Below are positions 1,600 to 64,000 of a stretch of DNA of 64,000 nt, in pieces. Position numbers and translations under genes: made by a program. Each line of letters opens with the position of its first letter. The first letter of the stretch is position 1. The stretch comes from a virus. The stretch lies in the IMG/VR virus record IMGVR_UViG_3300029544_000195. One strand, 5' to 3'. The notes below the pieces were generated by a model. The model searched no databases and was not told the origin of the DNA. It saw only the letters and a program-made list of their open reading frames with translations.

Positions 1600-1671
1600 G
1601 GTCCGTTGGTCAAGCGGCTAAGACGCTGCCCTCTCACGGCAGAAACAGGGGTTCGATTCCCCTACGGACTA
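1600..1671 (+). tRNA. tRNA-Glu (anticodon CUC)
   Basis: Manual cloverleaf. Acceptor GGTCCGT/ACGGACT (G-U at 1-72). Anticodon stem CTGCC/GGCAG with loop CTCTCAC. T-arm AGGGG-TTCGATT-CCCCT. Confidence 0.7.
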
Positions 1672-1879
1672 CTTATACTTTTTGTTTCACAAGATTACTG
1701 GAAGTACTAGAAATGCGTTGATTGCAGGACGTTATAAAATTTACCAAAATAGTGTAGAAAAACGTGAGGTAATCAAAAAAGTAATCAAACATATGTTCGA
1801 TAATAAAAACAGAAAGGAGAAGTTTCTGTATAAATACATTTTATTAGACCAATAGGTCTTATTTTTTTGCATTTAGGGG

Positions 1880-17604: not shown

Positions 17605-19476
17605 ATGATTAGTTTGCAGATGGGTGTTATCCCTAACTTGGATATTTTGAGTAAATTGTCAGATATTAACAAAAGAAAAAACTGCTCAGAAAAAATAAAA
17701 AAATATTTGAATGCTGAATTGTCGGAGAGCGAAATGCTAATTGATTGGTCAAAAGCAGGACGGGATTATGATTTAATTCCATGGGCTGATAATAATGATT
17801 ATTTATCCTTATGGGAAGAGCGTCATGCACAGAATGAGTATTATTTAGATGACAAACATATTCTTGGTTCAATGGTTGCTTTTGAAGTTATTGTGGGATA
17901 TGAAAAAGAATTGGAAATGGACATTGAGAAGTGGGGACGTATTCAGTATGATTGGTTTTGTGAAGAATTTTCAGAAGAAAATGTTTTATCGGCAATGCTG
18001 CATTTAGATAGCGAAGCTTATCCTCATTGTCATTTTTTAATTTACTATACGACAAAAGAAGGCGTTATTACAGAATCTCCTTATATTGAGCAGGGAAAAG
18101 TAAGTGCGCAATTTCTTGCTAAATATGAAGATGCAATGAAAAAATTTCAGTTAGACGCTATAACTAGAGAAAAATTGGCAAATTCAATAAAATCAAATGA
18201 GCCTGAGAATAATTCGGATTTTTATTTAGCAACAATTGACCGTTATATATCTGAAAATCCAAGAAGCGCTATTGATGACCAGGAGTATATTTATGACACG
18301 GTGGGCCAGTTGTCGCAAATAGCTTCTGCGTTAAGTATAGAACGACAAGAAGAACTTTTAACAGATTTAATTCACTATTTTATGCGTGTAGAGAAAAATA
18401 CGTTAAAGCAAGCGCAAAAAGGGATTCTTCTAAAAGAAAGCTTCTTTAAAGAGGTGAAAAAACGCTTAAAACAATTAGGGGTTGAAAAGTCAGAAGAAGT
18501 AGATATTATGCTGAAAAGAATTGATAGTGCTATTTATGGTAATTACATTCTTGACCCATTATTAAATGACGAATCTATTTCAGATATTAAAGTAATTGCG
18601 CCAGACAAAATTCGAGTTAAGAGATATGGCCGGCGCTTAACGTCTAATCTACATTTTCGGGGAATTGATGATTATTACCGTTTTTTAAATGGAATTGCGA
18701 TTCGCAATAACACAGATTTAAGCCCTTTTAATGCTGTCCAAAATTTTACAGATAAGTTTTCTAATGATAAGTGCATTATGCGTATTGATATTTGTACAAC
18801 TTTTGTGAATTCAGTGGGGTGGCCGTATTTACATATTCGCAAGGTGCCAAAGAAAAAATATACAATAGAAGATTTAATGAATTTTGGAATGCTTGATGTC
18901 AAAACAGCAGCTTACTTAATTGATAAAGTGAAAAACGGAAAAGGAATATTATTTACAGGAAAAGGTGCATCTGGTAAAACGACTTTGATGAATACGTTAC
19001 TTGATTTGATTTCCTATAACAATTCAGGCCTGGTTATTCAGGAAAACGAAGAATTGTTTTCTAATAAACATCCAGATTTAATGTTTCAGCATGTTGTTAC
19101 TAGCCGCCGGCAGAACGAAATTCAATTTGACCTAAAAGATTTAGCGCGAAATGGCTTGTTGACAGATTTGGATTATTTTGTTATCGGGGAAATCAAGGGT
19201 GGAGAAGCATTTTATTTTTTAAATGCGGCATACACCGGGCACAAATGCTGGGCTTCTTGTCATGGGGCTTCCTCTACGGAGGCAATTAATAAATTAGCGG
19301 ATTATGTCACCTATGAATCCGGGTATTCGCAGGCAGAAGCGAAAAAAATGCTTCAATCACTGGAAACTATTGTGTTTATGAAAAACTTTAAGGTGACAGA
19401 GATTTCAGAAATTACCGGTTGGAACGAAGAAAAGAAAGACTTAACATATCGGGCAATTTATCGTGGAATTGGGTGA
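17605..19476 (+). CDS. CpaF/VirB11/TadA-family secretion ATPase (type II/IV secretion NTPase)
   Basis: LDPLLNDESISDIKV...PDKIRVKRYGRR...GILFTGKGASGKTTLMNTL...VIGEIKGGEA...AYTGHKCWASCHGASSTEAINKL follows the CpaF/VirB11 motif order (Walker A, Asp box, His box). Confidence 0.7.
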   Translation: MISLQMGVIPNLDILSKLSDINKRKNCSEKIKKYLNAELSESEMLIDWSKAGRDYDLIPWADNNDYLSLWEERHAQNEYYLDDKHILGSMVAFEVIVGYEKELEMDIEKWGRIQYDWFCEEFSEENVLSAMLHLDSEAYPHCHFLIYYTTKEGVITESPYIEQGKVSAQFLAKYEDAMKKFQLDAITREKLANSIKSNEPENNSDFYLATIDRYISENPRSAIDDQEYIYDTVGQLSQIASALSIERQEELLTDLIHYFMRVEKNTLKQAQKGILLKESFFKEVKKRLKQLGVEKSEEVDIMLKRIDSAIYGNYILDPLLNDESISDIKVIAPDKIRVKRYGRRLTSNLHFRGIDDYYRFLNGIAIRNNTDLSPFNAVQNFTDKFSNDKCIMRIDICTTFVNSVGWPYLHIRKVPKKKYTIEDLMNFGMLDVKTAAYLIDKVKNGKGILFTGKGASGKTTLMNTLLDLISYNNSGLVIQENEELFSNKHPDLMFQHVVTSRRQNEIQFDLKDLARNGLLTDLDYFVIGEIKGGEAFYFLNAAYTGHKCWASCHGASSTEAINKLADYVTYESGYSQAEAKKMLQSLETIVFMKNFKVTEISEITGWNEEKKDLTYRAIYRGIG

Positions 19477-48233: not shown

Positions 48234-48269
48234 CTGTCCAAATATAATGGACATTACCAATACTTTGGT

Positions 48270-51248: not shown

Positions 51249-51252
51249 TTTT

Positions 51253-52014: not shown

Positions 52015-52073
52015 CTATGATTACGTCAATGTAGAGTTATTAATAAAAGAATATGAGATAGGAGGAATGAGAA

Positions 52074-52730: not shown

Positions 52731-52741
52731 CAGACATATTA
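52731..52741 (+). promoter_or_regulatory. phage promoter motif
   Basis: TTAACAGACATATTAAATAT. Confidence 0.45.
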
Positions 52742-52787
52742 AATATATACAAAAAAATATAGAGAATGTAGAAAAGGAGGTACGCAA

Positions 52788-53561
52788 ATGGGTGTATATG
52801 TAACAGGAGATATTCACGGAATTCCAAACAGATTAAGTACAGATTATTTCCCTGAACAAAAACAATTTTCAGGAAACAAAGAAGAAAATATTGTTATTAT
52901 TTTGGGGGATTTTGGCTTTGTGTGGAATCGAAACGAAGAATCTAAACAGGAAAAATATTGGCTAAATTGGCTAGAAAATAAGCCTTTTACAACAGTTTTT
53001 GTAGACGGAAATCACGAATGCTTTCCTCTATTATATAATTATCCGGTAAAAGAATGGAATGGCGGTAAAGTACATGAAATTAGACCTCATGTATTGCATT
53101 TAATACGAGGAGAAATATTTACAATTGAAAATAAAAAATTCTTCTCTTTTGGCGGAGCAAGCAGCCACGATATTCAAGATGGTATTCTGGATTCAGAAGA
53201 CAAGAACTGGAAAAAGAAAGCAAAAGAATTAGACCGGCAATGTAAATATATGTATCGAGTAAAAGGATTATCATGGTGGCCGCAGGAATTACCTACGGAA
53301 GAGGAGATGCAGCATGGCCTAGATGTATTAAAAGAAAATGATAATACAGTAGACTATATTCTTTCTCACAGTCCATCAACATCTGAAATGTATCTTATGG
53401 GAGGTGTAGGCTTCTATGAAAAAGATGTTTTAACAAACTACTTAGATTGTGTTAAGGCATCAACTTATTATGGCAAGCATCTATTTGGACACATGCATGT
53501 AAATCACGCAATTAATGACAAAGATATTTGTTTGTATGACCAAATTGTCAGGATTTTGTAG
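52788..53561 (+). CDS. calcineurin-like metallophosphoesterase (Ser/Thr phosphatase-like)
   Basis: YVTGDIHG (motif I), IILGDFGF (GDxxDRG-like) and VDGNHE (GNHE) in canonical order. Confidence 0.65.
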   Translation: MGVYVTGDIHGIPNRLSTDYFPEQKQFSGNKEENIVIILGDFGFVWNRNEESKQEKYWLNWLENKPFTTVFVDGNHECFPLLYNYPVKEWNGGKVHEIRPHVLHLIRGEIFTIENKKFFSFGGASSHDIQDGILDSEDKNWKKKAKELDRQCKYMYRVKGLSWWPQELPTEEEMQHGLDVLKENDNTVDYILSHSPSTSEMYLMGGVGFYEKDVLTNYLDCVKASTYYGKHLFGHMHVNHAINDKDICLYDQIVRIL

Positions 53562-53578
53562 GAGAAAAAGAAATATAA

Positions 53579-53589
53579 CAGACATATTA
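53579..53589 (+). promoter_or_regulatory. phage promoter motif
   Basis: ATAACAGACATATTAAAAG. Confidence 0.45.
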
Positions 53590-53612
53590 AAAGTAGTAGA
53601 AAGGAGATTGTT

Positions 53613-54575
53613 ATGAAAGTTATTAAGAAAATACTGGCAGTAACTATGGTTTGTGTTGTTATGCTGACGAATACTGGTTGCGAAAATCCATTTATTGATA
53701 CGCCGTCCAATACCCCGGACCCTTATGCGATACAGATTTATACAAAAGATGATTTGCAGGATAATTGTTATTATATTAAGCATGGTGATGAATTTTACGA
53801 AATCCCATACGGGGAGCAAAGCTTCTATAAAAACGAAGAAACAGAAGCAGAATATGTTTTGGCGCAGGATGATGAACCGGAGCCGACAAGAAACTGGTTT
53901 TACAAAAAAGGTAAAGATGAGTTAATCATTCCTACTATGTATCAGGATGATAGTATCGTATATAAAACATCGGAAACAATTGACAATGTGTTTGAATGGG
54001 AACGATTTTCAGATGATGGTTATACAATTGGCCTGAGAGGAATTAATTTATCAGAAAACGGTAAATTGATTACATCAAATTATATAGCCAATCTTTTGGA
54101 GAACAGTCCATTTGACAAAGTAATGCACCGTGTTGAGGAAATGGATAATGAATATTACCAAACATTTACAATTGATTCTATTAACGGAAAGAAACTTTCT
54201 CAAAAAGATTTAGGAGAAAATGGTTGCATTAAGGGCCTCAATACAGATACAGAATTAAAGGTTCAAATTTATGCCGGCACAACTCCCTATGTAATTAAGA
54301 CCAAAGCAGATGTGCGTGTATTTAGCAACATCGAGAATTATTGGACGAAAACAATCCAGTATCAGTCCGGATTTGCTGAAATAACCACTTCGAAATCCTT
54401 TATTTCTGGATATTATAAAGTGGAAAACAGCGGACTGTTTCGTTATATTGACCGTCCATATTCAAAAGACATTGATATAACTAAAATTGATTACAATAAA
54501 AGATACTTTAAAAAGGAAGAAAATGGTTTTCTTGTTACAAAAGATGATAAAGACCAGTACTTATACGAGCAATAA
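53613..54575 (+). CDS. lipoprotein (320 aa)
   Basis: Signal peptide with lipobox LTNTGC. Confidence 0.5.
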   Translation: MKVIKKILAVTMVCVVMLTNTGCENPFIDTPSNTPDPYAIQIYTKDDLQDNCYYIKHGDEFYEIPYGEQSFYKNEETEAEYVLAQDDEPEPTRNWFYKKGKDELIIPTMYQDDSIVYKTSETIDNVFEWERFSDDGYTIGLRGINLSENGKLITSNYIANLLENSPFDKVMHRVEEMDNEYYQTFTIDSINGKKLSQKDLGENGCIKGLNTDTELKVQIYAGTTPYVIKTKADVRVFSNIENYWTKTIQYQSGFAEITTSKSFISGYYKVENSGLFRYIDRPYSKDIDITKIDYNKRYFKKEENGFLVTKDDKDQYLYEQ

Positions 54576-54631
54576 TCAAAGAGGTGTTCGCATGGTAACT
54601 TCTAGTATCACAAAGAACCTTATATTTTTAG

Positions 54632-54672
54632 AAAAAAAAATCACTCGGTTTTAACGCCGAGTGACCTTTTTT
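54632..54672. terminator. bidirectional terminator
   Basis: aaaaaaaaaTCACTCGGttttaacgCCGAGTGAccttttttttt. Confidence 0.6.
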
Positions 54673-55374
54673 TTACATAGCATACAATTTTTTCCTAGCT
54701 GCAATTAGCTGAGCCGCTTCTTGATTTAATACACGTTTCATTGCTGAATAACTGGTTCCGGTCATTTTCAAAAATTCTTTTCCTTCTTTGGAGGAAAACA
54801 AATAGCCGCTTTCTACAATTGCATGTAGTCGTTCCATAATTTTCCCGTTCATGATAACCCGGTAAGTATCCGGGTCTTCTTCCCATAGCCGTTTTAAGGA
54901 AAAATTACGATTTTCGCCATTCAGATAATAACCGGCGATATCACGTTCTCGTGTTTCTTTTGTCCGATAGTTCCCATAAGAAATAATATCTGCTACGGCA
55001 TGAGGCGTTTCAAGGTCAAGATTTAATTCCTCAATCTCTTTTTGGGATAAAGGCGGTTTGTTTACAGGCTTAATATCAGCAGCTTTTTTCTCTGGAGCAA
55101 TGCCGGCCCATCCAGCAAGTGTTTCAAGGGCTTTCTGATAATCAATTCCGCAAACATTCATTACCATGCCCTCTAAGTTGGTCTGCCGGTCACACACAAA
55201 GCAATAATGACCTCTTTTGTTTAATACACAGTTATTTTTGTGTGTGTCATCATGGTCTAAGTTTGTACACAAAATTTCAAGTCGGCCATGATTTGAAACA
55301 TCAAGGCCAAGCTTTTCTGCAACGGTTATCCCGTCTAATGCTTCGTAAATTTTATCGCGATTGAAGTATGCCAT
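54673..55374 (-). CDS. CHC2-type zinc-finger protein (DnaG-primase N-terminal zinc-binding-domain-like), no toprim domain
   Basis: ILCTNLDHDDTHKNNCVLNKRGHYCFVCDRQTNLEGMVMNVCGIDYQKALETLA matches the CHC2 zinc-finger pattern (C-x-H...C-x2-C). Confidence 0.5.
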   Translation of the reverse strand: MAYFNRDKIYEALDGITVAEKLGLDVSNHGRLEILCTNLDHDDTHKNNCVLNKRGHYCFVCDRQTNLEGMVMNVCGIDYQKALETLAGWAGIAPEKKAADIKPVNKPPLSQKEIEELNLDLETPHAVADIISYGNYRTKETRERDIAGYYLNGENRNFSLKRLWEEDPDTYRVIMNGKIMERLHAIVESGYLFSSKEGKEFLKMTGTSYSAMKRVLNQEAAQLIAARKKLYAM

Positions 55375-55406
55375 ATCTAACCCTCCTTTTATTTAATTGA
55401 TATTTA

Positions 55407-55417
55407 TAATATGTCTT
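55407..55417 (-). promoter_or_regulatory. variant phage promoter motif (AAAAGACATATTATAA) on minus strand
   Basis: Reverse complement reads gcaaaaaagacatattataa. Lies ~30 nt before the RBS/ATG of the 55374 gene. Confidence 0.4.
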
Positions 55418-55448
55418 TTTTGCTATGGCAGAAAAAAACAAGGGCAAA

Positions 55449-55459
55449 CAGACATATTA
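55449..55459 (+). promoter_or_regulatory. phage promoter motif
   Basis: GCAAACAGACATATTAAAAG. Confidence 0.45.
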
Positions 55460-55492
55460 AAAGAAAGAATTAATAAGAAAGGATGATGAAGA

Positions 55493-56941
55493 ATGGGAAC
55501 TGTAGAACAAGATACATTACAAGGTTTTGCTCGATTTACAGATATAGCTACTGATATGCCAAAAGTATTTGGAGAAATCTTGCAGTCTGTGTCTCAAAAA
55601 TGGGGGCAAAAAGCAGATTATCATGCATTAATGAAATCTATGAATGAACATTTAGCAGATAACCCGAACTATCTGCCGCCATGTTTTGTGCCAAAAGATT
55701 TCGCACTCAAAGATTTTGAAGATGAATTTCATGCATTGGGCGGAAAGGGCATGGTTTCCGGTCGAGTTGTAAAAGGGCCGTACACCGGTACGGTTGTAGC
55801 TTTTGTACGAGAAGAAGATATGCTTTTAGCACAGATTGCAAAGGAAAGGGCGCTTTCTATTGGACAGACGCGAATGGATGAATTAGGAAACGTTTTGTCA
55901 AATTCGGTTGAAGTTAGTCTTCCTACGTTGAAATACAGCGCAAGCAAAAACGGATATCCAACACTTATGCAATTGCCGGCGATGGATGAAGTAAAGGCGA
56001 ACATGCTGTCAGAACAATTTAGAGTAAATGGTGTTATGTTCAGCAAAGTAGAGCAGGAAGGAGATGCCGGTGAAACAAGGCAGGCTTTTTACTGCAACCC
56101 GAAAGACCGTAAAAAAGTTGAATCTTGTCTGGCAAGAACAGAGGTTGAATTTGATGGAATTTCCGGAACACGGCAGCATATGATTCGTCAAAATGAAGTA
56201 GATGCTATTACAAAATCAATGAATTACATTGGGGCTAATAAGGCTACTCGAAATTTTTATGTTGTATCCGGCACGTGCACCAGTAATGTAATTGAAGTAA
56301 GCGGAGATAATTTAAATCATCAAACGATTCGAAAAGATGGTACTCCGCAAATTATGAGAAAAGTTAAAGGACAGGAAGATTTTAGCAATCTTGCTAGAGT
56401 ATATAAACAGGAAGTGTCTTCTATGAGGGCCCCGGTTGTTTTGGAGAAGGACGAATACGAAGCTGTTAAAAATGACAAAGAAGCGTTAGAAAAATTAGTG
56501 CAGGAAAAAAGAAAATTCCCGATGTATGCCAGCCTGGAAGAAAAGGCGCAGATTTTATTTGAAAAAGAAGTAAAAAATGCCTATATACGAAAAGTGTCTA
56601 TGACGCAATTAGTGCAGCCATATGATGCCATCGTGGATAAAATGATGCTGCAGGATGTCATGAATGGTGATATGACATTAGAGAATTATTTAGTTTCAGG
56701 GACAAATGCAGACCCAGATGCAGATATCGCAAAATGGAGCGAGGAAGAAAAAAGTCAAGCAGCTGATTTGATTAAAGGATATATTGAACGTTATGAGCAT
56801 GTTACGGAACAGATTATTGACAAAGAAGTAGACATTGAAGACCTTGATTACAAAGTAAGTCTTGATGATATGCTGAATGATATTCAGACAACAAATGCAA
56901 CATATGCATTGCCTGAAGCTGAGCCGGAAGTGGGTGATTAA
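55493..56941 (+). CDS. hypothetical protein (482 aa), translationally coupled to the coupling-protein gene
   Basis: Weak RBS (GGATGA) before the ATG. Stop lies 2 nt before the next start. No relaxase His-triad seen. Confidence 0.5.
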   Translation: MGTVEQDTLQGFARFTDIATDMPKVFGEILQSVSQKWGQKADYHALMKSMNEHLADNPNYLPPCFVPKDFALKDFEDEFHALGGKGMVSGRVVKGPYTGTVVAFVREEDMLLAQIAKERALSIGQTRMDELGNVLSNSVEVSLPTLKYSASKNGYPTLMQLPAMDEVKANMLSEQFRVNGVMFSKVEQEGDAGETRQAFYCNPKDRKKVESCLARTEVEFDGISGTRQHMIRQNEVDAITKSMNYIGANKATRNFYVVSGTCTSNVIEVSGDNLNHQTIRKDGTPQIMRKVKGQEDFSNLARVYKQEVSSMRAPVVLEKDEYEAVKNDKEALEKLVQEKRKFPMYASLEEKAQILFEKEVKNAYIRKVSMTQLVQPYDAIVDKMMLQDVMNGDMTLENYLVSGTNADPDADIAKWSEEEKSQAADLIKGYIERYEHVTEQIIDKEVDIEDLDYKVSLDDMLNDIQTTNATYALPEAEPEVGD

Positions 56942-56943
56942 TC

Positions 56944-59232
56944 ATGCCTAATAATAAGGAAGAAAGATTACGCGGAATCCGGAAAATGTTTATATTTTGC
57001 GGAGGAATCCTTTATTTATTGCTTTTGTTATTTACCTTACATATGGGCTGTATCAAACCGGAGTATGAAAACAATCCGATAAAGATTATGCAATTAGCAA
57101 TGGAACACATACAAGAAAAGCCGCTTGCTATTTTGCCATTTACGTCATATTCATTTGTTTATCCAATGGTTGGGACTTGTATCTTTGGTATCATAATGTT
57201 ATATGCGTATTTAATGGTAATAAGAAGAGATACAGATAAGGATGCCGGAGGTTCCGCTAAGTGGAATACGGATATGAAGGCGTATAATAAAAAGTATAAT
57301 ACGCCATTTCGTTCGATTAAAACAAATGGAGCAGATAATATAATTTTGGCAAAAGATTTGTATATGTCCATGAACGGAAGCAAAACACGAAGAAACTGTC
57401 ATCAGATTGTTTTCGGAGGGTCCGGTACTGGCAAATCATTTTCGCTTGTTAAGCCAAATGGGTTGCAGATGAATAGCTCCTATGTATTTACTGACCCAAA
57501 AGGAGAATTAACGGAAGCTTTAGCTGGACCATTGGAAGATGCCGGTTATGAAATTAAAATTTTTAACCTTAGTAAAATGTCGGATTCTCTATGCTATAAT
57601 CCGTATGCTTATATTCGAGATGAAAATGGTGTCCGTTCCATGGTAAATTGTATTGTAGAAAATACGCGAAAAGAAGGCACTTCCGGAGGAGACCAGATTT
57701 GGGATGATTCCATGACGGTATTATTACAGGCAATTTCTTTTTACATGATGGAAAAGCTGCCAAAAGAAGAGTGTAATTTATCGACAGCGATGAAATTGAT
57801 TCGTTTGGCAGAAGTGGATGAAAATAATTCTTCTGCGAAATCCGAATTGGATATATTGTTTGATAATTACGAAAAAGCAAATAAAGAAGCCGGTAACCCG
57901 GAAAGTATGGCAACGAAATGTTATAAGGAATTTCGTATTGCATCCGGTAAGACATTGAAATCTGTGTTGATTACAACAATGACTCGATTGAGCGCATTTG
58001 ATTATAGCAATGTAGCTAGTTTATTAAAAAGAGATGAATTGCATTTAGAAGAATTGGGAAGAAAAAAACAGGTTTTGTTTATTATTATTCCTACTGCGGA
58101 TAAGGCATTTAACTTTATTGCTGCTTGTTTGTATACGCAGTTGTTTGAATATTTGTATTATTTAGTAGAAAATATATATCCTCATAGTTATTTTTTACAA
58201 AAGGAAGTAAATGGATTGACGGAAACTTTCTTATGGGGTGAAACGATTGAAGAAGTAAAAGCAAAGAAGAAAATGCTTCAGAGCGCAAAGATTGTCGAAA
58301 AAGAAAATCATTATGAAATTGTCAGTAAAGAAGATATTTTTATTGAACGCTTCCTTAATAAGAAAGCAGCAGAATGGTTTTTAGCTAATGCCGGTGGGAA
58401 AATTGTTCCCGGCGACCGAACGTTACCATATAATATACGTTTTCTATTGGACGAATTTGCGAATGTTGGTAAAATTCCCGGATTTGTTGAAAAAATTGCA
58501 ACGATGCGTTCTTATAAGATGTGGTGTACCATTATCTTGCAGAATCAAAGTCAGTTGAAAAAAATGTGGGATGATGATATGAGTACTATTATTGGAAACT
58601 GCGATACGATGATTTTCCTTGGCAGTCAGGAAAAAGACATGATTGAATATATTCAGGCTATGCTTGGTAAAACAACGAAACGTCAGCAGGGAACTTCTAT
58701 TGGTGGAAAAGGCGGAGGAAACGAGTCTTATAATTATACCGGAACGGATTTGTTAGATTTTAACCAGATTCGTGAAATGGCGGATAATGATTGTATTGTA
58801 TTTATTCGAGGAGAAAAACCTTTTTATACAACAAAATACAATTACACAGAACATCCAAAATATCATTTAACTGGAGACGCTGATAAAGCACTTCGTTATG
58901 AAATTCCATATAATAGTCAACGTGTAATTGATTCTAAAATAGACAAAAAACAATCGCACGATGACAAGGTTGCTCGTTATAAGAAAGAAATCGCGCGAGA
59001 TGAGAAAAAGGTAATTAATGGGCCTAGTTATGAAACTGAGTCAATTTTGAACAAGGTCTGTAATGGAAATCCGGAGCAATTAAAAGAATGTTTGGAACTG
59101 GAACATGAAAACGAAAAGGTTGCGAAAACGGAAACTGAAAAGAAAATAGCAAAAGAAGAAAAAGAAAAATCAGAGAAACTTAAAATTGCTATGCAGGAAC
59201 AGGATGCAAATTTATGGGACATTATGATGTAA
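56944..59232 (+). CDS. VirD4/TraG-like type IV coupling protein (FtsK/T4CP-family ATPase)
   Basis: Two N-terminal TM helices. Walker A VFGGSGTGKSFSL. Walker B/T4CP motif RFLLDEFANVGKIPGF. C-terminal Lys/Glu-rich tail. Confidence 0.65.
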   Translation: MPNNKEERLRGIRKMFIFCGGILYLLLLLFTLHMGCIKPEYENNPIKIMQLAMEHIQEKPLAILPFTSYSFVYPMVGTCIFGIIMLYAYLMVIRRDTDKDAGGSAKWNTDMKAYNKKYNTPFRSIKTNGADNIILAKDLYMSMNGSKTRRNCHQIVFGGSGTGKSFSLVKPNGLQMNSSYVFTDPKGELTEALAGPLEDAGYEIKIFNLSKMSDSLCYNPYAYIRDENGVRSMVNCIVENTRKEGTSGGDQIWDDSMTVLLQAISFYMMEKLPKEECNLSTAMKLIRLAEVDENNSSAKSELDILFDNYEKANKEAGNPESMATKCYKEFRIASGKTLKSVLITTMTRLSAFDYSNVASLLKRDELHLEELGRKKQVLFIIIPTADKAFNFIAACLYTQLFEYLYYLVENIYPHSYFLQKEVNGLTETFLWGETIEEVKAKKKMLQSAKIVEKENHYEIVSKEDIFIERFLNKKAAEWFLANAGGKIVPGDRTLPYNIRFLLDEFANVGKIPGFVEKIATMRSYKMWCTIILQNQSQLKKMWDDDMSTIIGNCDTMIFLGSQEKDMIEYIQAMLGKTTKRQQGTSIGGKGGGNESYNYTGTDLLDFNQIREMADNDCIVFIRGEKPFYTTKYNYTEHPKYHLTGDADKALRYEIPYNSQRVIDSKIDKKQSHDDKVARYKKEIARDEKKVINGPSYETESILNKVCNGNPEQLKECLELEHENEKVAKTETEKKIAKEEKEKSEKLKIAMQEQDANLWDIMM

Positions 59233-59234
59233 GA

Positions 59235-59266
59235 AAAAGGAGCCTGAAAAGGGCTCTTTTTTTTCT
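59235..59266 (+). terminator. rho-independent terminator
   Basis: aaaaaGGAGCCtgaaaaGGGCTCtttttttt. Confidence 0.6.
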
Positions 59267-59289
59267 TGTTTGTTTTTAGGGTGGGCTAA

Positions 59290-59300
59290 CAGACATATTA
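59290..59300 (+). promoter_or_regulatory. phage promoter motif
   Basis: CTAACAGACATATTAATAT. Confidence 0.45.
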
Positions 59301-59377
59301 ATATAAGTGTAATGGAGAAGAGAGCATTACACGAGTAATTGTTAATTTTTTTATTGGAAAGGAGAGATTCTATTTTC

Positions 59378-62300
59378 ATGAGAAAAAGAAAAATTTTTAA
59401 ACGTTCGGTAGCCGGAGTCTTGGCTTTGGCAATGCTTTTAAGTGGCAATATCGGTTCAATCCGAAGTAAAGCTGCTGTACAAAGTGTAGCAACCGGGTCC
59501 GTTGCCGAAGTCGAAACAGACCCCGGAAGTCGCAATCTTTCGAATGTCTCTTTTGATGTCAATTCCATTGTTGAAAGTGGAACTGCCGGTTATTCTTATG
59601 TGAATAACGCATTAATTACCTATTGGGGCATTGATAAAAATGGCGTTTTTGCTTTTTACAAGATGGAAAATAACCGCCCGTCTGCGAAAATGGATGATGC
59701 CGGTTATTATGTTATGGGCAGTTGTTTGGCTAACATGTCAACTGCTGCTAAAAAGAAAATCAAGTATGTTATTGGTGGCTTGAATTCCGGCATGAAATTG
59801 GACGGAGATGGCGTTTTGGAATATGCTTTTGCTAATTGCGTAAACTTGGTTGAAGTATTTCGTCTTCCGCCGGTAGCGTATGCCAAAGGTATTTTTCAGA
59901 ATTGTAGAAAATTAGAGCATATTTGGTGTCCAATGGGTGACGCAAATCATGATGTTTGTGATTTACAAGCAGCATTTGATAACTGTACAAGTTTACATGG
60001 TTATTTGCTGTTTGGAAACATTGCATCAAGTATTTCGTTAGATGACAAAACTTTTAATGAGACAGGTTCAGATTGTGACGAAAGTGATAAGTTATGGCTT
60101 ACTGTCTATGGAGAAAACAGCGCAGCAAAAGATAAAATTTATACTTCTGCAAGAACAGGATGTTATGTTAATTATCTTGACACATCAAGTTCTGCTTCAC
60201 TTAGTATTTACAAGACAGCACTAGATACTACCAAAAATGTATCTTACAAGAAGGCAAATGGTGATTATCAGTCAATTACATCATCTATTACTTATGGACA
60301 GACTGTTTCAGACGCTCTTGATTCTGCTATGACAGAAAGTGGACTTATTGGCTACAATTATACGAAACAAACATCCAAAGGATATTATTTCGTTGCGCCA
60401 AACAAAAATCAGTCTTTACAATATGCAATGGGTAGCGGCTTATCCGGCCACACAAAGGATGATGTTTTGGATGCCGGCAATTATACAAAGGCAATTAAAT
60501 CAACCAAAAACAGCAACCTCATAGAGGGGACTTTAATGGTTAATAAATGCCCGATAACAGATTGTTCGGTCGCTTTGACAAATTCATCTGTTCCTTATAC
60601 TGGAGGCGCAATTACCAATAGCGTAACTGCTAAAAACCCTTATACCAAAAAAGCCTTAGTGCTTGGACAGGACTATACAGTGTCTTATAGCAGCAATACA
60701 AATGTTGGAACTGCCGTTGCCGTAATAAACGGTACAGGAAATTATTCCGGTTCAGTTACAAAAACATTTGCAATTGTGGATAAAACTGCTCCGAAAGGAA
60801 ATATTACTTCTAATATTACGGCGGACAAAAATCAGTCCGTAACATTAGAGGCTAGTGATAATGTAGGAGTTACTTCTTATTATTTTGGAGCTTCGGCTAG
60901 CCCAGCAAGTTCTGCTTATACCAAAGTGGCTTCCACAAAATCATTTTCGGTAGATAAAACAATTTCTACTGCAGGAACTTATTACTTTTTCGCTAAAGAC
61001 AGCGCAGGAAATATATCTGCTGTCAAAAAAATTGTTTGTTATCAAACAAAACTCTCTTCAAATGGTGGAAAAGTAACTTATGATGGAGCTATTTATGAAA
61101 CTGATTTTTCAATTGTAAAAGTCGGTGGAACAACCATTAATTTGCCTATTCCGAAAAAGAAAGGATATACATTCTCTTCTTGGGATGGATTTAATGGAAC
61201 TTACACAATCAATGAAACAAAATCATTGTCTGCTGTTTATGACAAAAACACTTATTCAATCATTTATGATTTAAATGGTGGAACTGCTGCAAATGTTAGC
61301 AATTATACAGTAGAAGATGATGACATTCATCTGAATGCACCAACAAAGCAGGGATATGTATTTAACGGATGGACCGGCAGCAACGGCGACACTCCGGAAA
61401 AAGATGTCGTAATTACAAAAGGTTCTGTTGGAAATCGCAATTATGTAGCCAATTATACTCATATTTACGATTACAACACTTCGGATGATACTGTAACAAT
61501 TTACAAAAATTCAGAAAATACTCGCTCTATTATTTATGCAGAATGTGCAAACGCTAAAAAAATTGCATTTGCCGTTGATGTAGATAATATTGCGGACATG
61601 GATTTTAGTAAATTTGCAAACTTGGAATCCATTACAGTAAACTCAAAAGATGCTGATTATGCATCAGAGGGTGGATTACTTTATAACAAAGATAAATCCA
61701 TTTTAGTTTACTGCCCGAAGAAACACAGTGATAATCCGGAAATCAGCAAAGTATGCGAAACAATTCAGGCAAATGCTTTTGCCGGCTGCACAGTTAAAAA
61801 TGTAGCAATTCCGTATTCGGTAGAAACGGTTGAGAAAAACGCGTTCGCTAACACAAACTTACATTCTGTAACGGTGAAAAATCCGGAAACTACTTTGGAG
61901 AAAGAGTCAATTCCGAATACAACAGAGAAGTTGATTGGTTTTCAGGGGTCAAGCGTGGCAAGCTATTGTCAGAACGCAAACCGTGAATCTTATGAAATTC
62001 TCACAACAATTCCGGATGATTTCTTCAAGGACGAAGTAACTATGGAATCGTTTGATATTCCGGCTAATATCACAAGTGTTGGAAACAATGCTTTTGATAG
62101 CTGCGTAAACTTGAAAGATATTACTCTGGGACGCGTTCAGACAATTGGTTCTTATGCGTTCAATAATACAAAGATTGCCGAATTGGAAATTCCAAATACG
62201 GTACAATCAATCGGAGAACGTGCTTTCTCCAGTATTGCCGCTTTAGAGACCATTGAATTTGAAGACCAGAGCGTTTTATCCAATATTGGAGCATTTGCTT

Positions 62301-64000
62301 TTGCGAAAGCAAACGTAACAGAAGTTTCCATTCCAGAATCTGTTGTCTTAGTTGGAAAAGGGGCATTTAACGGATGCTTCGCTCTCAATGAAGCAACTTT
62401 TGAAGGGATGAATGCAAACCTTACTTATGATGAAATCAGCGCCGTATTCCCGAACAGTACAGTTGTTAAATGCTATTACAAGAGTAAAGCATATGACTTT
62501 GCTATGGCGCATGAATATCCGATTTCTCTTATGGTCGGATATGAAAAAGACAAGACAGAAGAGTATTCTTATGTACAGGATTCTCCGGCTCATCTTGTTG
62601 AAGTAACTGTTGGACCGTTGTTAAAGAAAATCAATGCAGGTGCTTTTAAGGGCTGCAAGAATTTAACAACAATTTCGTTCGATGAAGAAGCTATTTTAGC
62701 TGAAATCGGAGAAAGCGCATTTGCAAATTCTGGACTTGCTGCAATTGAATTACCAAAGACGGTGATTACATTGGGCGAAGGAGCGTTTGAAGAAGCGGAA
62801 AGCTTAGTCAGTGTCTCCTTTGGCGGAGTAACGAATGTCCCGAACAATGCGTTTAACGGTTGTAGTTCTCTTACAACCTTAAAAGATACGGACCAGTTTG
62901 AAACAATTGGCGAAAATGCTTTTGCCGGAACCGCTCTTACTGAGTTCACAACCGGCGATAGTTTAATCAGTTTTGGAGAAAATGCTTTTGCAGATTCTAC
63001 GCTTAACGTTTTGGGCGTAGAGAATCCAAATTGTAAATTCCCAGCCGGTCCATTAGTTCCGAATGGAACAGAAATTAAAGGATACACCAACTCTACAGCG
63101 GATATTTATTCGCAGACGTACTTGAATAAGTCCTGTACTTCTTACGGAAAACCGGCTTATGTTGTTCAGTTGAACACAATGGGCGGTATTAACGGGGACG
63201 AAAAAGTTTATGTTGTAAACGGCAAACCGATTCCTCCGATTGTGATTCCGGAAAAAGAAGATTATAGTTTTGTAGGATATTTCAGTTCTGAAAACGGCGG
63301 AGTTCAATACTTTAACGAAAACGGAAAATCTACAAAAACATGGGACGGAACCATGAATCTTATTTTGTATGCGTCATGGAAACACGACCAGTATACAGTT
63401 GCTTATAATGGCAACGGAGCAACAGAAGGCGTTATGAAAGCAGATGCCTTTGATACAAAAACAAACGTCAATTTGACGAAAAATGCTTTTGGCAAAAAAG
63501 GCTATCAGTTCCTCGGTTGGTCTACCGATAGAAATGCCACAAAAGCAATGTATACGGACAAAGATACCGTAAAAGACCTTGCAGGAAAGAATCAGACAGT
63601 AACTTTATACGCTGTTTGGAAACCGGCAAATTACTTTATCACGTATCATGCAAATGGTGGTAACGGAACGATGGATGTGCAGACTTTATCTTCTGATGTT
63701 AAGCAGGAGTTAAGCGTTAATACATTTACACGTACCGGTTACAAATTCCTTGGATGGAGCCGTGATGCAAAAGCAACAAATGCTGAGTATTATGACAAAT
63801 ACAAAGCTGCTAATCTGGCATCTGCCGGAGAAACGATTCACTTGTATGCAATCTGGGCTGTTGACGATGGCAAGAATGGAAATCAAATTGCTTTTGATGG
63901 CAATGGTGGAACAACAGATGCCACTACGTTAACAATTTATGAAGGTCATACAATTACTTTGCCGGGATTCGAGACAACTCGTGATGGAAGAGTATTTCTT
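59378..64000 (+). CDS. giant secreted surface protein: BspA-type leucine-rich repeats + Listeria-Bacteroides (Flg_new) repeat domains; 3' end beyond window
   Basis: Signal peptide MRKRKIFKRSVAGVLALAML. LRR units such as NAFDSCVNLKDITLGRVQTIGSYAFNNTKIAELEIPNTVQSIGERAF. Repeated YxxNGGxG...GYxFxGW modules. No stop in >4.6 kb. Confidence 0.65.
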   Translation, partial: MRKRKIFKRSVAGVLALAMLLSGNIGSIRSKAAVQSVATGSVAEVETDPGSRNLSNVSFDVNSIVESGTAGYSYVNNALITYWGIDKNGVFAFYKMENNRPSAKMDDAGYYVMGSCLANMSTAAKKKIKYVIGGLNSGMKLDGDGVLEYAFANCVNLVEVFRLPPVAYAKGIFQNCRKLEHIWCPMGDANHDVCDLQAAFDNCTSLHGYLLFGNIASSISLDDKTFNETGSDCDESDKLWLTVYGENSAAKDKIYTSARTGCYVNYLDTSSSASLSIYKTALDTTKNVSYKKANGDYQSITSSITYGQTVSDALDSAMTESGLIGYNYTKQTSKGYYFVAPNKNQSLQYAMGSGLSGHTKDDVLDAGNYTKAIKSTKNSNLIEGTLMVNKCPITDCSVALTNSSVPYTGGAITNSVTAKNPYTKKALVLGQDYTVSYSSNTNVGTAVAVINGTGNYSGSVTKTFAIVDKTAPKGNITSNITADKNQSVTLEASDNVGVTSYYFGASASPASSAYTKVASTKSFSVDKTISTAGTYYFFAKDSAGNISAVKKIVCYQTKLSSNGGKVTYDGAIYETDFSIVKVGGTTINLPIPKKKGYTFSSWDGFNGTYTINETKSLSAVYDKNTYSIIYDLNGGTAANVSNYTVEDDDIHLNAPTKQGYVFNGWTGSNGDTPEKDVVITKGSVGNRNYVANYTHIYDYNTSDDTVTIYKNSENTRSIIYAECANAKKIAFAVDVDNIADMDFSKFANLESITVNSKDADYASEGGLLYNKDKSILVYCPKKHSDNPEISKVCETIQANAFAGCTVKNVAIPYSVETVEKNAFANTNLHSVTVKNPETTLEKESIPNTTEKLIGFQGSSVASYCQNANRESYEILTTIPDDFFKDEVTMESFDIPANITSVGNNAFDSCVNLKDITLGRVQTIGSYAFNNTKIAELEIPNTVQSIGERAFSSIAALETIEFEDQSVLSNIGAFAFAKANVTEVSIPESVVLVGKGAFNGCFALNEATFEGMNANLTYDEISAVFPNSTVVKCYYKSKAYDFAMAHEYPISLMVGYEKDKTEEYSYVQDSPAHLVEVTVGPLLKKINAGAFKGCKNLTTISFDEEAILAEIGESAFANSGLAAIELPKTVITLGEGAFEEAESLVSVSFGGVTNVPNNAFNGCSSLTTLKDTDQFETIGENAFAGTALTEFTTGDSLISFGENAFADSTLNVLGVENPNCKFPAGPLVPNGTEIKGYTNSTADIYSQTYLNKSCTSYGKPAYVVQLNTMGGINGDEKVYVVNGKPIPPIVIPEKEDYSFVGYFSSENGGVQYFNENGKSTKTWDGTMNLILYASWKHDQYTVAYNGNGATEGVMKADAFDTKTNVNLTKNAFGKKGYQFLGWSTDRNATKAMYTDKDTVKDLAGKNQTVTLYAVWKPANYFITYHANGGNGTMDVQTLSSDVKQELSVNTFTRTGYKFLGWSRDAKATNAEYYDKYKAANLASAGETIHLYAIWAVDDGKNGNQIAFDGNGGTTDATTLTIYEGHTITLPGFETTRDGRVFL

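What the first reader, a model, noticed from the sequence alone, without database searches (positions are those of the whole stretch)
55493..59232. VirD4/TraG-like coupling protein translationally coupled to a 482-aa unknown protein, driven by a phage promoter motif
The 762-aa product has two N-terminal TM helices, a Walker A motif (GGSGTGKS) and the T4CP-typical LLDEFANVG Walker B region. It is FtsK/T4CP-like. It is preceded by a 482-aa protein with no recognisable relaxase motifs whose stop lies 2 nt before the T4CP start.

T4CPs normally pair with a relaxase. This may be a novel relaxase or DNA-processing partner, or a phage DNA-translocation module. The divergently transcribed CHC2 zinc-finger gene (54673-55374) recalls the primase zinc-finger proteins of conjugative leading regions.
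Basis: partly seen in the sequence, partly recalled or inferred. Interest (0 to 1): 0.55.

Follow-up and report, generated by a model that had tools for sequence, protein, structure and literature searches.

The report
Conjugation coupling protein with PcfB-like partner
This is a two-gene operon from a large mobile element integrated in a gut Clostridium chromosome: an ordinary conjugative DNA-transfer "coupling" ATPase, preceded by an unusually long, diverged version of the uncharacterised PcfB/DUF3801 protein that normally sits before such ATPases, so the partner is not a new relaxase and nothing ties the pair to phage DNA packaging.

Summary
A conserved motif precedes the pair and a terminator follows it.

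The 762-aa protein is a VirD4-type coupling protein of the NCBIfam CD1115 family (413.8 bits, cutoff 250). It is not FtsK-like.

The 482-aa protein shows no relaxase signature. Profile-profile comparison shows two tandem DUF3801 (PcfB-type) domains. After them come a basic beta-rich domain, a helical domain and an acidic tail, none with detectable homologues.

PcfB/DUF3801 is the usual gene upstream of CD1115-type T4CPs in Firmicute plasmids and ICEs (pCF10 pcfB-pcfC, pRUMAL02, pCDC3875). The pairing holds in four diverged lineages of this rare family (about 20 clusters among 1.84 billion proteins).

The element starts 11 nt after tRNA-Glu, spans more than 62 kb of the window and is present in Clostridium sp. 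AF37-5. The "phage promoter" is an element-wide motif (31 copies) with no demonstrated phage origin.

A candidate relaxase lies 36 kb upstream: a MobV-like domain fused to a VirB11/CpaF-like ATPase. No T4SS channel genes occur in the window or within about 18 kb downstream.

Verdict: a new variant of a known kind, of modest interest.

The parts
1600..1683 (+). tRNA-Glu(CTC) and the left junction of the integrated element. Homology to empty-site contigs ends at 1683.
17605..19476 (+). Candidate relaxase of the element: an N-terminal MobV-like HUH domain (motif III HLDSEAYPHCH present, motif I absent) fused to a CpaF/FlaI/VirB11-type ATPase.
54641..54673 (.). Bidirectional terminator-like hairpin between the 320-aa gene and the 3' end of the CHC2 gene.
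54673..55374 (-). Divergent 233-aa protein with a primase-type CHC2 zinc ribbon; no Toprim or catalytic-domain family was reported. Conserved in L001 (43% identity) but not in L002.
55407..55418 (-). One-mismatch copy of the element motif (AAAGACATATTA), 44 nt before the CHC2 ATG.
55448..55459 (+). Element-wide promoter-like motif ACAGACATATTA, 45 nt before the ATG of the 482-aa gene.
55493..56941 (+). 482-aa long-form PcfB/DUF3801-like protein. It is cytoplasmic (no TM segment) and acidic (pI 4.9).
55667..55861 (+). DUF3801-like unit 1 (aa 59-123).
   Evidence: hhalign of the aa 40-130 sub-alignment against PcfB: probability 87.6%, P=3.5e-6; controls; model.
55919..56155 (+). DUF3801-like unit 2 (aa 143-221).
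   Evidence: hhalign of the aa 135-225 sub-alignment against PcfB: probability 94.5%, P=7.8e-8.
56252..56446 (+). Beta-rich domain (aa 254-318), holding the consensus block FYVVS...H276...P314-VVL. The surrounding aa 223-345 segment is basic (pI 9.2). No homologue found.
56447..56938 (+). Helical C-terminal domain (aa 319-451) and a low-confidence acidic tail (aa 452-482, ending EVGD).
56932..56938 (+). SD-like GGGTGAT for the T4CP, encoded by the terminal V-G-D codons of the upstream gene. The same arrangement occurs in L001.
56944..59232 (+). 762-aa VirD4-type T4CP of the CD1115 family. TM1 is at aa 15-37, TM2 at aa 71-93, Walker A at nt 57415-57438 and Walker B region at nt 58444-58470. Relative to PcfC there is a stretch of about 75 aa (aa ~404-480) between the two aligned segments, plus a charged C-terminal extension.
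59232..59274 (+). Intrinsic terminator (14-bp stem plus T-run) that closes the bicistronic unit.
59289..59300 (+). The next motif copy, which starts the following transcription unit.
59378..64000 (+). Start of a giant secreted LRR_5/Flg_new surface protein that runs off the window (1883 aa in identical contigs). It is probably an adhesin of the element.

Best explanation
Window 55448-59274 is a self-contained bicistronic operon of a large mobile element. The element is integrated immediately 3' of tRNA-Glu(CTC) in a Clostridium sp. AF37-5-like gut Clostridia chromosome. At least 62 kb of it lies in the window, and related contigs add about 10 kb more.

Transcription is inferred to start at the element-specific promoter-like motif AACAGACATATTAA and to end at the hairpin after the second gene.

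Gene 2 encodes a membrane-anchored VirD4-type coupling ATPase (CD1115 family), the substrate receptor of Gram-positive conjugation systems.

Gene 1 encodes a soluble, acidic protein. It is a long-form, diverged member of the PcfB/DUF3801 class, built from two tandem DUF3801 alpha/beta domains, a basic beta-rich domain, a helical domain and an acidic tail.

As with pcfB-pcfC of pCF10, the two genes abut: a 2-nt spacer, with the SD inside the last codons of gene 1. Translation is therefore probably coupled and the two proteins are probably made together.

The inferred role of the 482-aa protein is as a T4CP accessory or adaptor subunit. [quoted passage not shown] It is not the relaxase. The best relaxase candidate in the element is the MobV-like/VirB11-like fusion at 17605-19476.

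Shown: gene structure, family assignments, domain homology, synteny in four lineages, integration site.
Inferred: promoter activity, coupling, physical interaction, adaptor role.
For: T4CP identity:
- PF02534 E=2e-61, PF12696 E=4e-29, and NF045973 'VirD4-like, CD1115 family' at 413.8 bits against a cutoff of 250.
- 637 plasmid records match, and all twelve records listed carry the CD1115 annotation under the match; 467 of the 637 plasmids are typed conjugative.

DUF3801 homology of the 482-aa family:
- 7 of 18 family members hit PF12687. One of them, P0016, scores 27.7 bits, above the gathering score of 24.1.
- hhalign of the family against a PcfB alignment gives 82% probability, E=1e-5.
- The two sub-domains match the same PcfB core independently: 87.6% (P=3.5e-6) and 94.5% (P=7.8e-8).
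- Controls with the reversed PcfB alignment and an unrelated alignment give at most 1.1% probability.

Archetype:
- In pCF10 the 'PcfB family protein' CDS overlaps the start of PcfC, which is itself CD1115 family.
- A published ICE backbone has the order pcfB-virD4-maff2-virB6-virB3-virB4 (PMC12084326).
- Long DUF3801 proteins (455, 316 and 279 aa) lie just before the T4CP in pRUMAL02, pCDC3875 and a Brevibacillus plasmid; in Brevibacillus one small ORF lies between them.

Synteny of this family with a T4CP in four lineages:
- the window;
- L001 (42% identity, 1-nt spacer, followed by TrbL_2 and PrgI genes and a cut-off 424-aa ORF homologous to VirB4);
- L002 (24% identity, followed by PrgI, VirB4 and NlpC/P60);
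- MT835474.1 (profile E=1.4e-10).

Operon boundaries.

No relaxase-like features:
- no relaxase family appears among the Pfam families listed for the 18 members at E<=1;
- there is no significant PDB sequence or fold match, only PII/ACT-like and ring-building-motif-like small alpha/beta domains.

Integration and host.
Against: - Pfam PF12687 and NCBIfam give no hit on the window protein itself. The DUF3801 link rests on relatives and on profile-profile probabilities of 82-94.5%, not above 95%.
- More than half of the protein (aa 222-482) has no homologue outside its own small family.
- No function has been reported for PcfB/DUF3801 in the literature searched. It is listed as 'Not defined' in PMC12084326. 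The adaptor role is therefore analogy, not evidence.
- No T4SS channel genes (VirB6-like, PrgI, VirB4, hydrolase) occur in the window or within about 18 kb downstream of the T4CP. It is not shown that this element has its own channel.
- The MobV-like domain lacks the motif I region.
- The T4CP start codon is not experimentally fixed, and gene callers differ.
Confidence: 0.7

Rival explanations
1. The pair is part of a mobilisation-only kit. The element encodes a T4CP, its PcfB-like accessory and a MobV-like protein but no mating channel, and it borrows the T4SS of a co-resident conjugative element (IME-like behaviour).
For: - No homologue of the L001/L002 T4SS genes occurs in 62 kb of element in the window or about 18 kb downstream of the T4CP.
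- In this lineage the T4CP is followed by a terminator and a surface-protein gene rather than by virB6/virB3/virB4.
Against: - The element continues beyond what could be read.
- All three diverged relatives have the T4SS genes directly after the T4CP.
- The element carries giant adhesin-like surface proteins and a VirB11/CpaF-type ATPase domain, which suggests its own apparatus.
Confidence: 0.2
2. The 482-aa protein is a new, non-HUH relaxase or other DNA-processing enzyme that works with the T4CP.
For: - Its position next to a T4CP.
- The aa 223-345 segment, which holds the beta-rich domain, is basic (pI 9.2) and has no known homologue.
- A few nearly invariant polar residues: D109, E118 and H276.
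- The element's MobV-like protein lacks motif I.
Against: - No relaxase, Rep_trans or tyrosine-recombinase family appears among the families listed for the 18 members at E<=1.
- There is no HxH or conserved Tyr pattern. Only M1 and G225 are invariant, and five residues nearly so.
- There is no enzyme-like fold match.
- The N-terminal half is homologous to PcfB, which co-exists with separate relaxases in pCF10 and the Brevibacillus plasmid.
Confidence: 0.06
3. The module belongs to a (pro)phage and moves or packages phage DNA. The conserved motif is a phage promoter.
For: - An element-wide uniform promoter-like motif.
- A tRNA island with a ROOL RNA, a feature described as typical of phages and prophages (PMC12286853).
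- Several small ORFs hit PHROG families.
- A 'Bacteriophage sp.' record matches.
Against: - No terminase, portal, capsid or tail family appears among the Pfam/PHROG results for the window ORFs scanned, or among Pfam results for the larger ORFs of the 10-kb extension.
- No relatives of the 482-aa protein, the T4CP or the 623-aa protein occur in IMG/VR.
- The matching 'phage' record is UNVERIFIED and encodes ParM-like, SMC, VirB6-like, PrgI and VirB4 genes.
- ROOL also occurs outside prophages (PMC5737381).
- The T4CP is VirD4-type, not a terminase or FtsK type.
Confidence: 0.05
4. The 482-aa protein is itself a T4SS substrate, a protein transferred to the recipient (for example an establishment or anti-defence factor). 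It would be presented to the T4CP through its disordered acidic C-terminal tail.
For: - It is soluble, with a low-confidence charged C-terminus.
- Acidic C-termini are general in the family.
- It is encoded next to the substrate receptor.
Against: - No evidence of transfer.
- Conserved tight coupling with the T4CP suggests a stoichiometric partner rather than a cargo.
- The nearby leading-region-type genes (YodL, RadC, SocA) are encoded elsewhere in the element.
Confidence: 0.05

Closest known systems
pcfB-pcfC of Enterococcus faecalis plasmid pCF10
   Same: A DUF3801/PcfB protein lies immediately upstream of, and is translationally linked to, a VirD4-like T4CP of the same NCBIfam family (CD1115). 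The DUF3801 core aligns with both tandem units of the window protein.
   Different: - PcfB is 161 aa with one DUF3801 domain. The window protein is 482 aa with two such units plus about 260 aa of unique domains.
- BLASTP finds no direct similarity.
- The T4CPs share only 25-32% identity, with a stretch of about 75 aa between the aligned segments and a C-terminal extension here.
- In pCF10 the pair lies downstream of the T4SS genes and upstream of MobC and a relaxase. Here it is an isolated operon.
Long 'DUF3801 domain-containing proteins' upstream of CD1115 T4CPs (Ruminococcus albus pRUMAL02, 455 aa; Clostridium botulinum pCDC3875, 316 aa; Brevibacillus plasmid, 279 aa)
   Same: They hold the same position and orientation relative to the T4CP and are of similar extended length. 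By my reading of its sequence, the R. albus protein also seems to have two DUF3801-like units; this was not tested.
   Different: Outside the DUF3801 core there is no detectable similarity. The family profile scores these proteins insignificantly. Those plasmids have PrgI and VirB4 genes close downstream of the T4CP.
Firmicute ICE backbone pcfB-virD4-maff2-virB6-virB3-virB4 (Faecalibacterium ICEs, PMC12084326)
   Same: The gene order is reproduced in relatives L001, L002 and MT835474.1, with the ~470-aa protein in the pcfB slot.
   Different: In the window's own lineage the T4SS genes do not follow the T4CP. The pcfB-slot protein is three times longer.
Relaxosome accessory protein / T4CP pairs such as TraM-TraD of F-like plasmids (functional analogy, from general knowledge)
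   Same: The proposed working principle is the same: a soluble accessory factor that links the DNA-processing complex to the coupling ATPase. The T4CP here carries the TraG-D_C domain, which Pfam describes as the 'TraM recognition site of TraD and TraG'.
   Different: There is no sequence or fold similarity to TraM. No interaction was tested. This is analogy only.
MobM/MOBV relaxases (for the 623-aa protein at 17605-19476)
   Same: - Mob_Pre scores above the gathering score (28.9 vs 25.5).
- Identity to annotated MobV relaxases is 28-34%.
- Motif III HxDE..PHxH is conserved.
   Different: - The motif I region is absent.
- The NCBIfam MobV score is below its cutoff (42 vs 100).
- The domain is fused to a CpaF/FlaI/VirB11-type ATPase.

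Membership tests
VirD4-type T4CP, NCBIfam NF045973 (CD1115 family) | Score above the curated family cutoffs | tested here: met
   NF045973 scores 413.8 bits against a cutoff of 250. PF02534 scores 208.6 bits (gathering 20.1) and PF12696 scores 101.4 bits (gathering 22).
VirD4-type T4CP, NCBIfam NF045973 (CD1115 family) | N-terminal transmembrane anchor plus Walker A and Walker B NTP-binding motifs | tested here: met
   Hydrophobic segments lie at aa 15-37 and 71-93. GGSGTGKS is at aa 158-165 and LLDEFANVG at aa 501-509.
VirD4-type T4CP, NCBIfam NF045973 (CD1115 family) | Encoded with a T4SS (VirB4, VirB6-like, VirB3-like genes) | tested here: not met
   No homologues occur in the window or about 18 kb downstream of the T4CP. 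The feature is met in relatives L001, L002 and MT835474.1. The rest of the element could not be read.
VirD4-type T4CP, NCBIfam NF045973 (CD1115 family) | ATP-dependent role in DNA transfer | not testable with these tools
   Needs mating assays.
FtsK/SpoIIIE-type translocases (including TcpA/Orf21-type T4CPs) | Match to the FtsK_SpoIIIE domain | tested here: not met
   No FtsK_SpoIIIE family appears among the Pfam hits at E<=0.01. Only T4SS-DNA_transf, TraG-D_C and TrwB_AAD_bind are found.
PcfB / DUF3801 (PF12687), for the 482-aa protein | Pfam PF12687 match above the gathering score | tested here: not met
   The window protein gives no hit even at E<=1. Among relatives, 7 of 18 hit, and only P0016 exceeds the gathering score (27.7 vs 24.1 bits).
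PcfB / DUF3801 (PF12687), for the 482-aa protein | Profile-level homology to bona fide PcfB | tested here: met
   hhalign gives 82% for the whole family, 87.6% for unit 1 and 94.5% for unit 2 (P from 1e-5 to 8e-8), all on the same PcfB core (residues ~54-121). Controls give at most 1.1%.
PcfB / DUF3801 (PF12687), for the 482-aa protein | Located immediately upstream of, and co-oriented with, a CD1115-type T4CP | tested here: met
   Seen in the window, L001, L002 and MT835474.1. The archetypes are pCF10, pRUMAL02 and pCDC3875.
PcfB / DUF3801 (PF12687), for the 482-aa protein | Shared three-dimensional fold | tested here: inconclusive
   The model (pLDDT 77.5) shows two small alpha/beta units that resemble PII/ACT and ring-building-motif domains.
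Conjugative relaxases (MOBP/Q/V/F/H/C/T, TcpM-like), for the 482-aa protein | Match to a relaxase family, an HUH motif plus a catalytic Tyr/His, or a relaxase-like fold | tested here: not met
DnaG-type CHC2 zinc ribbon (PF01807), for the 233-aa protein | Pfam match above the gathering score and the CHC2 ligand pattern | tested here: inconclusive
   The score is 20.8 bits against a gathering score of 24.9. The PHROG 'DNA primase' family matches at E=3e-6. The L001 orthologue has a precomputed PF01807 hit. Cys36/His41...Cys58-x2-Cys61 are present.
DNA primase (DnaG/TraC-like), for the 233-aa protein | Toprim or catalytic primase domain | tested here: not met
   Only the zinc-ribbon region matches (aa 41-101). 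No other family is reported for the 233 aa.
MOBV relaxase, for the 623-aa protein at 17605-19476 | Motif III HxDE..PHxH (metal binding) | tested here: met
   HLDSEAYPHCH. H133, D135, E137, P140, H141 and H143 align with annotated MobVs. Mob_Pre scores 28.9 bits, above the gathering score of 25.5.
MOBV relaxase, for the 623-aa protein at 17605-19476 | Motif I (HxxR region, which carries the catalytic His in MobM by my recollection of the literature) | tested here: not met
   The region aligns to a gap, and the first His of the protein is H74. The NCBIfam MobV score of 42 bits is below the cutoff of 100.

The most novel reading that the evidence does not exclude
The element is a hybrid that combines phage-type features with a non-canonical conjugative DNA-processing set.

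The phage-type features are a uniform element-specific promoter on nearly every operon and a tRNA island with a ROOL nanocage RNA.

The non-canonical set would have two parts. The first is a MobV-like nuclease domain that lacks motif I and is fused to a VirB11/CpaF-type hexameric ATPase. The second is a T4CP whose long tandem-DUF3801 partner supplies the missing DNA-recognition or hand-over function through its unique basic beta-rich domain.

That would make this small protein family a new class of relaxosome/T4CP adaptor and would give DUF3801/PcfB its first function.
Probability: 0.1. Interest if true: 0.6.

Novelty: new variant of a known kind. Interest (0 to 1): 0.3.

Why it matters
PcfB/DUF3801 proteins sit next to the coupling protein in a large share of Firmicute conjugative plasmids and ICEs. 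These elements are the main vehicles of gene exchange, including antibiotic resistance, in gut Clostridia and enterococci. No function for the family was found in the literature searched.

This rare long form duplicates the DUF3801 domain and adds a basic beta-rich domain and an acidic tail. It is fused at the translational level to its T4CP. That gives a richer handle for structural and interaction studies than the 160-aa archetype.

In practice, the result tells annotators that "unknown protein upstream of VirD4" in these elements is a diverged PcfB, not a missing relaxase.

The surrounding element is at least as interesting as the flagged pair. It is common in human gut metagenomes and present in a cultured isolate. 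It carries an element-wide promoter motif, a ROOL RNA inside a tRNA island, and a relaxase-like/VirB11-like fusion.

Tried and rejected
- Direct family searches of the 482-aa protein (Pfam, NCBIfam, PHROGs, PDB sequences) gave nothing meaningful. A weak Bud32 hit (E=0.003, 16.9 bits against a cutoff of 125) was dismissed as noise.
- The word-indexed homologue search found only 2-3 relatives. The exhaustive profile search was needed.
- The first AF2 model, from 3 sequences, was too poor to use (pLDDT 52).
- Megablast of 52000-64000 against plasmids and phages gave no match. tblastn of the 482-aa protein against plasmids gave no match.
- The 482-aa family was not found in IMG/VR or in GTDB species representatives. 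The T4CP and the 623-aa protein were not found in IMG/VR.
- The motif scan of IMG/VR returned only single chance hits in the rows listed.
- oriT search: inverted repeats around the operon and around the MobV-like gene are only the paired promoter motifs or short AT-rich repeats. No convincing nick-site hairpin was found.
The 10-kb extension that could be obtained (L012) holds M78 peptidases, a second giant surface protein, MazF and transglutaminase-like genes, but no T4SS or integrase.
- The idea that the annotated long DUF3801 proteins are full-length homologues was rejected. Only the core is shared.
- The 229-aa divergent neighbour in L002 was considered as a CHC2 orthologue and rejected: there is no similarity.

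Full report
**Observation.**
The upstream stop (TAA, 56939-56941) is separated from the downstream ATG by two bases. The last codons of the upstream gene (..GTG GGT GAT TAA) form an SD-like GGGTGAT 5 nt before that ATG.

The quoted T4CP motifs are present. GGSGTGKS is at aa 158-165 and LLDEFANVG at aa 501-509. Two hydrophobic segments lie at aa 15-37 and 71-93.

A 12-nt motif, ACAGACATATTA, lies 45 nt before the first ATG. A strong intrinsic terminator (59232-59274) follows the second stop, and a bidirectional hairpin lies at 54641-54673. The unit is therefore a discrete bicistronic operon.

One caveat concerns the T4CP start. Gene callers on identical public contigs begin it 14-33 codons later. 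However, the alignment with a 56%-identical homologue already begins at residues 4/5, and that homologue has the same tight junction (1-nt spacer), which favours the upstream ATG.

**The 762-aa protein.**
It exceeds the curated cutoffs of Pfam T4SS-DNA_transf (E=2e-61) and TraG-D_C (E=4e-29). It also exceeds the cutoff of NCBIfam NF045973, 'VirD4-like conjugal transfer protein, CD1115 family' (413.8 bits, cutoff 250). It gives no FtsK/SpoIIIE match.

tblastn finds 637 plasmid records. All twelve records listed carry the CD1115 annotation under the match, and 467 of the 637 plasmids are typed conjugative. Identity to these is about 40% at most. Relative to pCF10 PcfC, a stretch of about 75 aa (aa ~404-480) separates the two aligned segments, and there is a charged C-terminal extension of about 120 aa.

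This is a VirD4-type coupling protein.

**The 482-aa protein.**
Direct searches are blank in Pfam, NCBIfam, PHROGs and PDB sequences.

The family is small. There are 2-3 relatives in the indexed 5.8-billion-protein set and 20 cluster representatives among 1.84 billion in the exhaustive profile search, nearly all 456-518 aa. The element itself is not rare: the near-identical cluster has 159 member sequences, and the exact protein is on at least 28 assemblies.

The 18-sequence alignment has very few invariant positions: M1 and G225 are invariant, and D109, E118, G222, H276 and P314 nearly so. There is no HxH or catalytic-Tyr pattern. No relaxase, Rep_trans or recombinase family appears among the Pfam families listed at E<=1 for the 18 members.

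What does appear is DUF3801 (PF12687), the PcfB family, in 7 of 18 members. One of them scores above the gathering score (27.7 vs 24.1 bits).

I built a PcfB alignment from pCF10 PcfB and its homologues and compared profiles.
- The whole family matches the PcfB core at 82% probability, E=1e-5.
- Split into sub-alignments, aa 40-130 matches at 87.6% (P=3.5e-6) and aa 135-225 at 94.5% (P=7.8e-8). Each matches the same PcfB columns (~54-121).
- The aa 225-345 and 340-482 segments do not match.
- Reversed-alignment and unrelated-alignment controls give at most 1.1%.

An AF2 model from the 18-sequence alignment (pLDDT 77.5, pTM 0.69) shows the following:
- low-confidence N-terminal helices;
- two small alpha/beta units (aa ~59-123 and ~143-221);
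- a long helix;
- a beta-rich domain (aa 254-318);
- a helical domain;
- a low-confidence tail.

The protein has no hydrophobic segment and is acidic overall (pI 4.9). The aa 223-345 segment, which holds the beta-rich domain, is basic (pI 9.2), and the C-terminal tail is acidic.

**Context that explains the pairing.**
In pCF10 the 'PcfB family protein' CDS (161 aa) overlaps by one base the start of PcfC, which is itself annotated 'VirD4-like, CD1115 family'.

A published description of Firmicute ICE backbones gives the order pcfB (DUF3801, function 'Not defined')-virD4-maff2-virB6-virB3-virB4 (PMC12084326).

In the three plasmid hits examined, an annotated 'DUF3801 domain-containing protein' lies just before the T4CP, and these are long forms:
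- 455 aa in Ruminococcus albus pRUMAL02;
- 316 aa in C. botulinum pCDC3875;
- 279 aa in a Brevibacillus plasmid, where one small ORF intervenes.
They share only the DUF3801 core with the window family.

Members of the window family sit in the same slot in three further diverged lineages:
- L001 (42% identity): followed by the T4CP, two small genes, a TrbL_2 gene, a PrgI gene and a cut-off 424-aa ORF that is homologous to VirB4.
- L002 (24% identity): followed by the T4CP, PrgI, VirB4 and NlpC/P60.
- MT835474.1: the upstream ORF matches the family profile at E=1.4e-10, and the T4CP is followed by VirB6-like, PrgI and VirB4 genes.

The 'unknown partner' is therefore the element's PcfB-class protein. 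It is an expanded, tandem-domain variant that current family models miss.

**The element.**
Contigs that carry the window's left-hand host genes (FMN_bind and Fer4_5 proteins) match the window only up to position 1683. That is 11 nt past tRNA-Glu(CTC) (1600-1672). They then continue into a terminator and a host secreted-protein gene, which is an empty site. Everything from 1684 to the window end is therefore an insertion of more than 62 kb.

The cultured isolate Clostridium sp. AF37-5 has the same host flank (100% identity for the Fer4 protein). It has the same insertion, matching window 1-7536 in segments at 89-99.7% identity.

The motif ACAGACATATTA occurs 31 times (30 exact) against 0.37 expected. 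It always points at the next gene, and it typically starts 43-49 nt before the ATG. The consensus is aaAACAGACATATTAaaaaTAt. It does not look like a canonical sigma-70 -35/-10 pair. An imperfect inverted copy faces the CHC2 gene, and copies also flank the same intergenic region in L001.

Gene content seen in the window:
- RecD2 and UvrD-type helicases;
- an AAA_5/VWA pair;
- RadC, YodL, SocA/Panacea, NT5C and a metallophosphoesterase;
- an SPFH protein;
- giant LRR/Flg_new surface proteins;
- no virion genes among the ORFs scanned.

An 83-kb 'UNVERIFIED Bacteriophage sp.' record shares RecD2, AAA_5, VWA and the T4CP with the window. It shares ParM-like, SMC, VirB6-like, PrgI and VirB4 genes with L002. 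It is a conjugative-plasmid-like relative, not a phage.

The one truly phage-flavoured feature is a tRNA island (six tRNAs, 47781-51325) that encloses a full-length ROOL RNA (389.7 bits). The literature describes ROOL as common in phages and prophages near tRNA islands, but also outside them.

**Relaxase and T4SS.**
The 623-aa protein at 17605-19476 has an N-terminal MobV-like domain:
- Mob_Pre 28.9 bits, above the gathering score of 25.5;
- NCBIfam MobV E=9e-11, but below its cutoff;
- 28-34% identity to annotated MobV relaxases;
- motif III HLDSEAYPHCH conserved.
This domain is fused to a CpaF/FlaI/VirB11-type ATPase (E=1.5e-14). The motif I region is missing, so its activity is uncertain. 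Even so, a relaxase candidate exists.

No homologue of the relatives' T4SS channel genes is present in the window or within about 18 kb downstream of the T4CP. The remainder of the element could not be read with the tools available.

No convincing oriT hairpin was found near either locus.

**Mechanism proposed.**
- Shown: a promoter-like motif, a two-gene operon and a terminator; a VirD4-type T4CP; a soluble tandem-DUF3801 partner; conserved adjacency in four lineages; integration next to tRNA-Glu.
- Inferred: translational coupling gives co-production. The partner binds the cytoplasmic face of the T4CP and helps to recruit or transfer the nucleoprotein substrate, possibly using the basic beta-rich domain for nucleic acid contact and the acidic tail for protein contact.

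No function has been reported for any PcfB in the literature searched. This role is therefore an analogy to other accessory-protein/T4CP pairs, not a result.

**Verdict.**

The finding resolves into the standard pcfB-virD4 arrangement with a new long-form variant of the PcfB class. Interest is modest (0.3). The surrounding element deserves a separate look for its ROOL/tRNA island, its uniform promoter motif and its MobV-like/VirB11-like fusion.

Noticed in passing
window 48734-49308 (+): A full-length ROOL RNA (Rfam RF03087, 389.7 bits against a gathering score of 99.1, model positions 1-574 of 574) lies inside the element's tRNA island. The element otherwise looks conjugative rather than viral. 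The literature places ROOL mostly in phages and prophages near tRNA islands.
   Followed up: partly
window 47781-51325 (+): A tRNA island inside the mobile element: Ile(TAT), Asn(GTT), Gln(TTG), Glu(TTC), Ser(GCT) and Gly(GCC). Promoter-motif copies lie on both sides of it (47581, 47669, 52730).
   Followed up: no
window 5215-59300 (31 sites); L001 8820, 9919(-), 9953: The element-wide promoter-like motif aaAACAGACATATTAaaaaTAt occurs 31 times against 0.37 expected. It typically starts 43-49 nt before start codons. A subset of copies also has an upstream TCATAATATGATTTTC box that is partly complementary to the motif, which could be an operator palindrome. The factor that recognises it is unknown. 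The motif is conserved in a lineage whose proteins are only 42-56% identical.
   Followed up: partly
window 17605-19476 (+): A 623-aa fusion of a MobV-like relaxase domain with a CpaF/FlaI/VirB11-type secretion ATPase. Motif III HxDE..PHxH is kept and the motif I region is missing. I do not know of this architecture elsewhere; its distribution was not surveyed here.
   Followed up: partly
window 1600-1684; L008-L010, L015: The left junction of the element lies 11 nt after tRNA-Glu(CTC). Empty-site contigs exist. The cultured isolate Clostridium sp. AF37-5 (NZ_QUDR01000001.1) carries the element at this site. No integrase was recognised among the ORFs scanned in the first ~5 kb of the element.
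   Followed up: partly
window 59378->64000; L003 13886-19537; L012 12159-16097; L001 2188-6246: Giant secreted surface proteins flank the T4CP operon in this element family. One has LRR_5/BspA and Flg_new repeats (1883 aa). A second (1312-1352 aa) also has a transglutaminase core. They may be mating adhesins.
   Followed up: no
window 6909-9032, 10828-14189; MT835474.1 33505-35622, 74064-77104: RecD2-type helicase and an AAA_5 (MoxR-like) plus VWA pair are shared backbone genes between the window and MT835474.1. That GenBank record is labelled 'UNVERIFIED: Bacteriophage sp.' but encodes ParM-like, SMC and T4SS genes, so it is probably a mislabelled conjugative plasmid.
   Followed up: partly
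window 56930-56946; L001 11400-11430: The conserved C-terminal residues EVGD of the PcfB-like protein are encoded by GAA GTG GGT GAT. This sequence doubles as the Shine-Dalgarno sequence of the T4CP in both close lineages, so protein conservation and RBS constraint cannot be separated there.
   Followed up: no
window 20000-47500: A long run of small same-strand ORFs is mostly without known domains. It includes two SocA/Panacea antitoxin-like proteins, RadC, YodL, DUF1653, NT5C and DUF551 (bulk scans, not mapped to individual ORFs), plus an HD_5 protein at 22075-22668 and a glucosaminidase-domain protein at 25840-26817. Nineteen PHROG families of mostly unknown function are hit.
   Followed up: no
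L001 7498-7890: A SecB-like chaperone gene (PF02556) lies upstream of the CHC2/PcfB-like/T4CP cluster in the related element.
   Followed up: no
L012 10001-11477 and 16505-16921; L003 20541-21104: Downstream of the window there are tandem ImmA/IrrE (Peptidase_M78) genes and a MazF toxin gene. ImmA/IrrE genes also lie upstream of the DUF3801-T4CP pair in R. albus pRUMAL02. This hints at a conserved regulatory neighbourhood.
   Followed up: no
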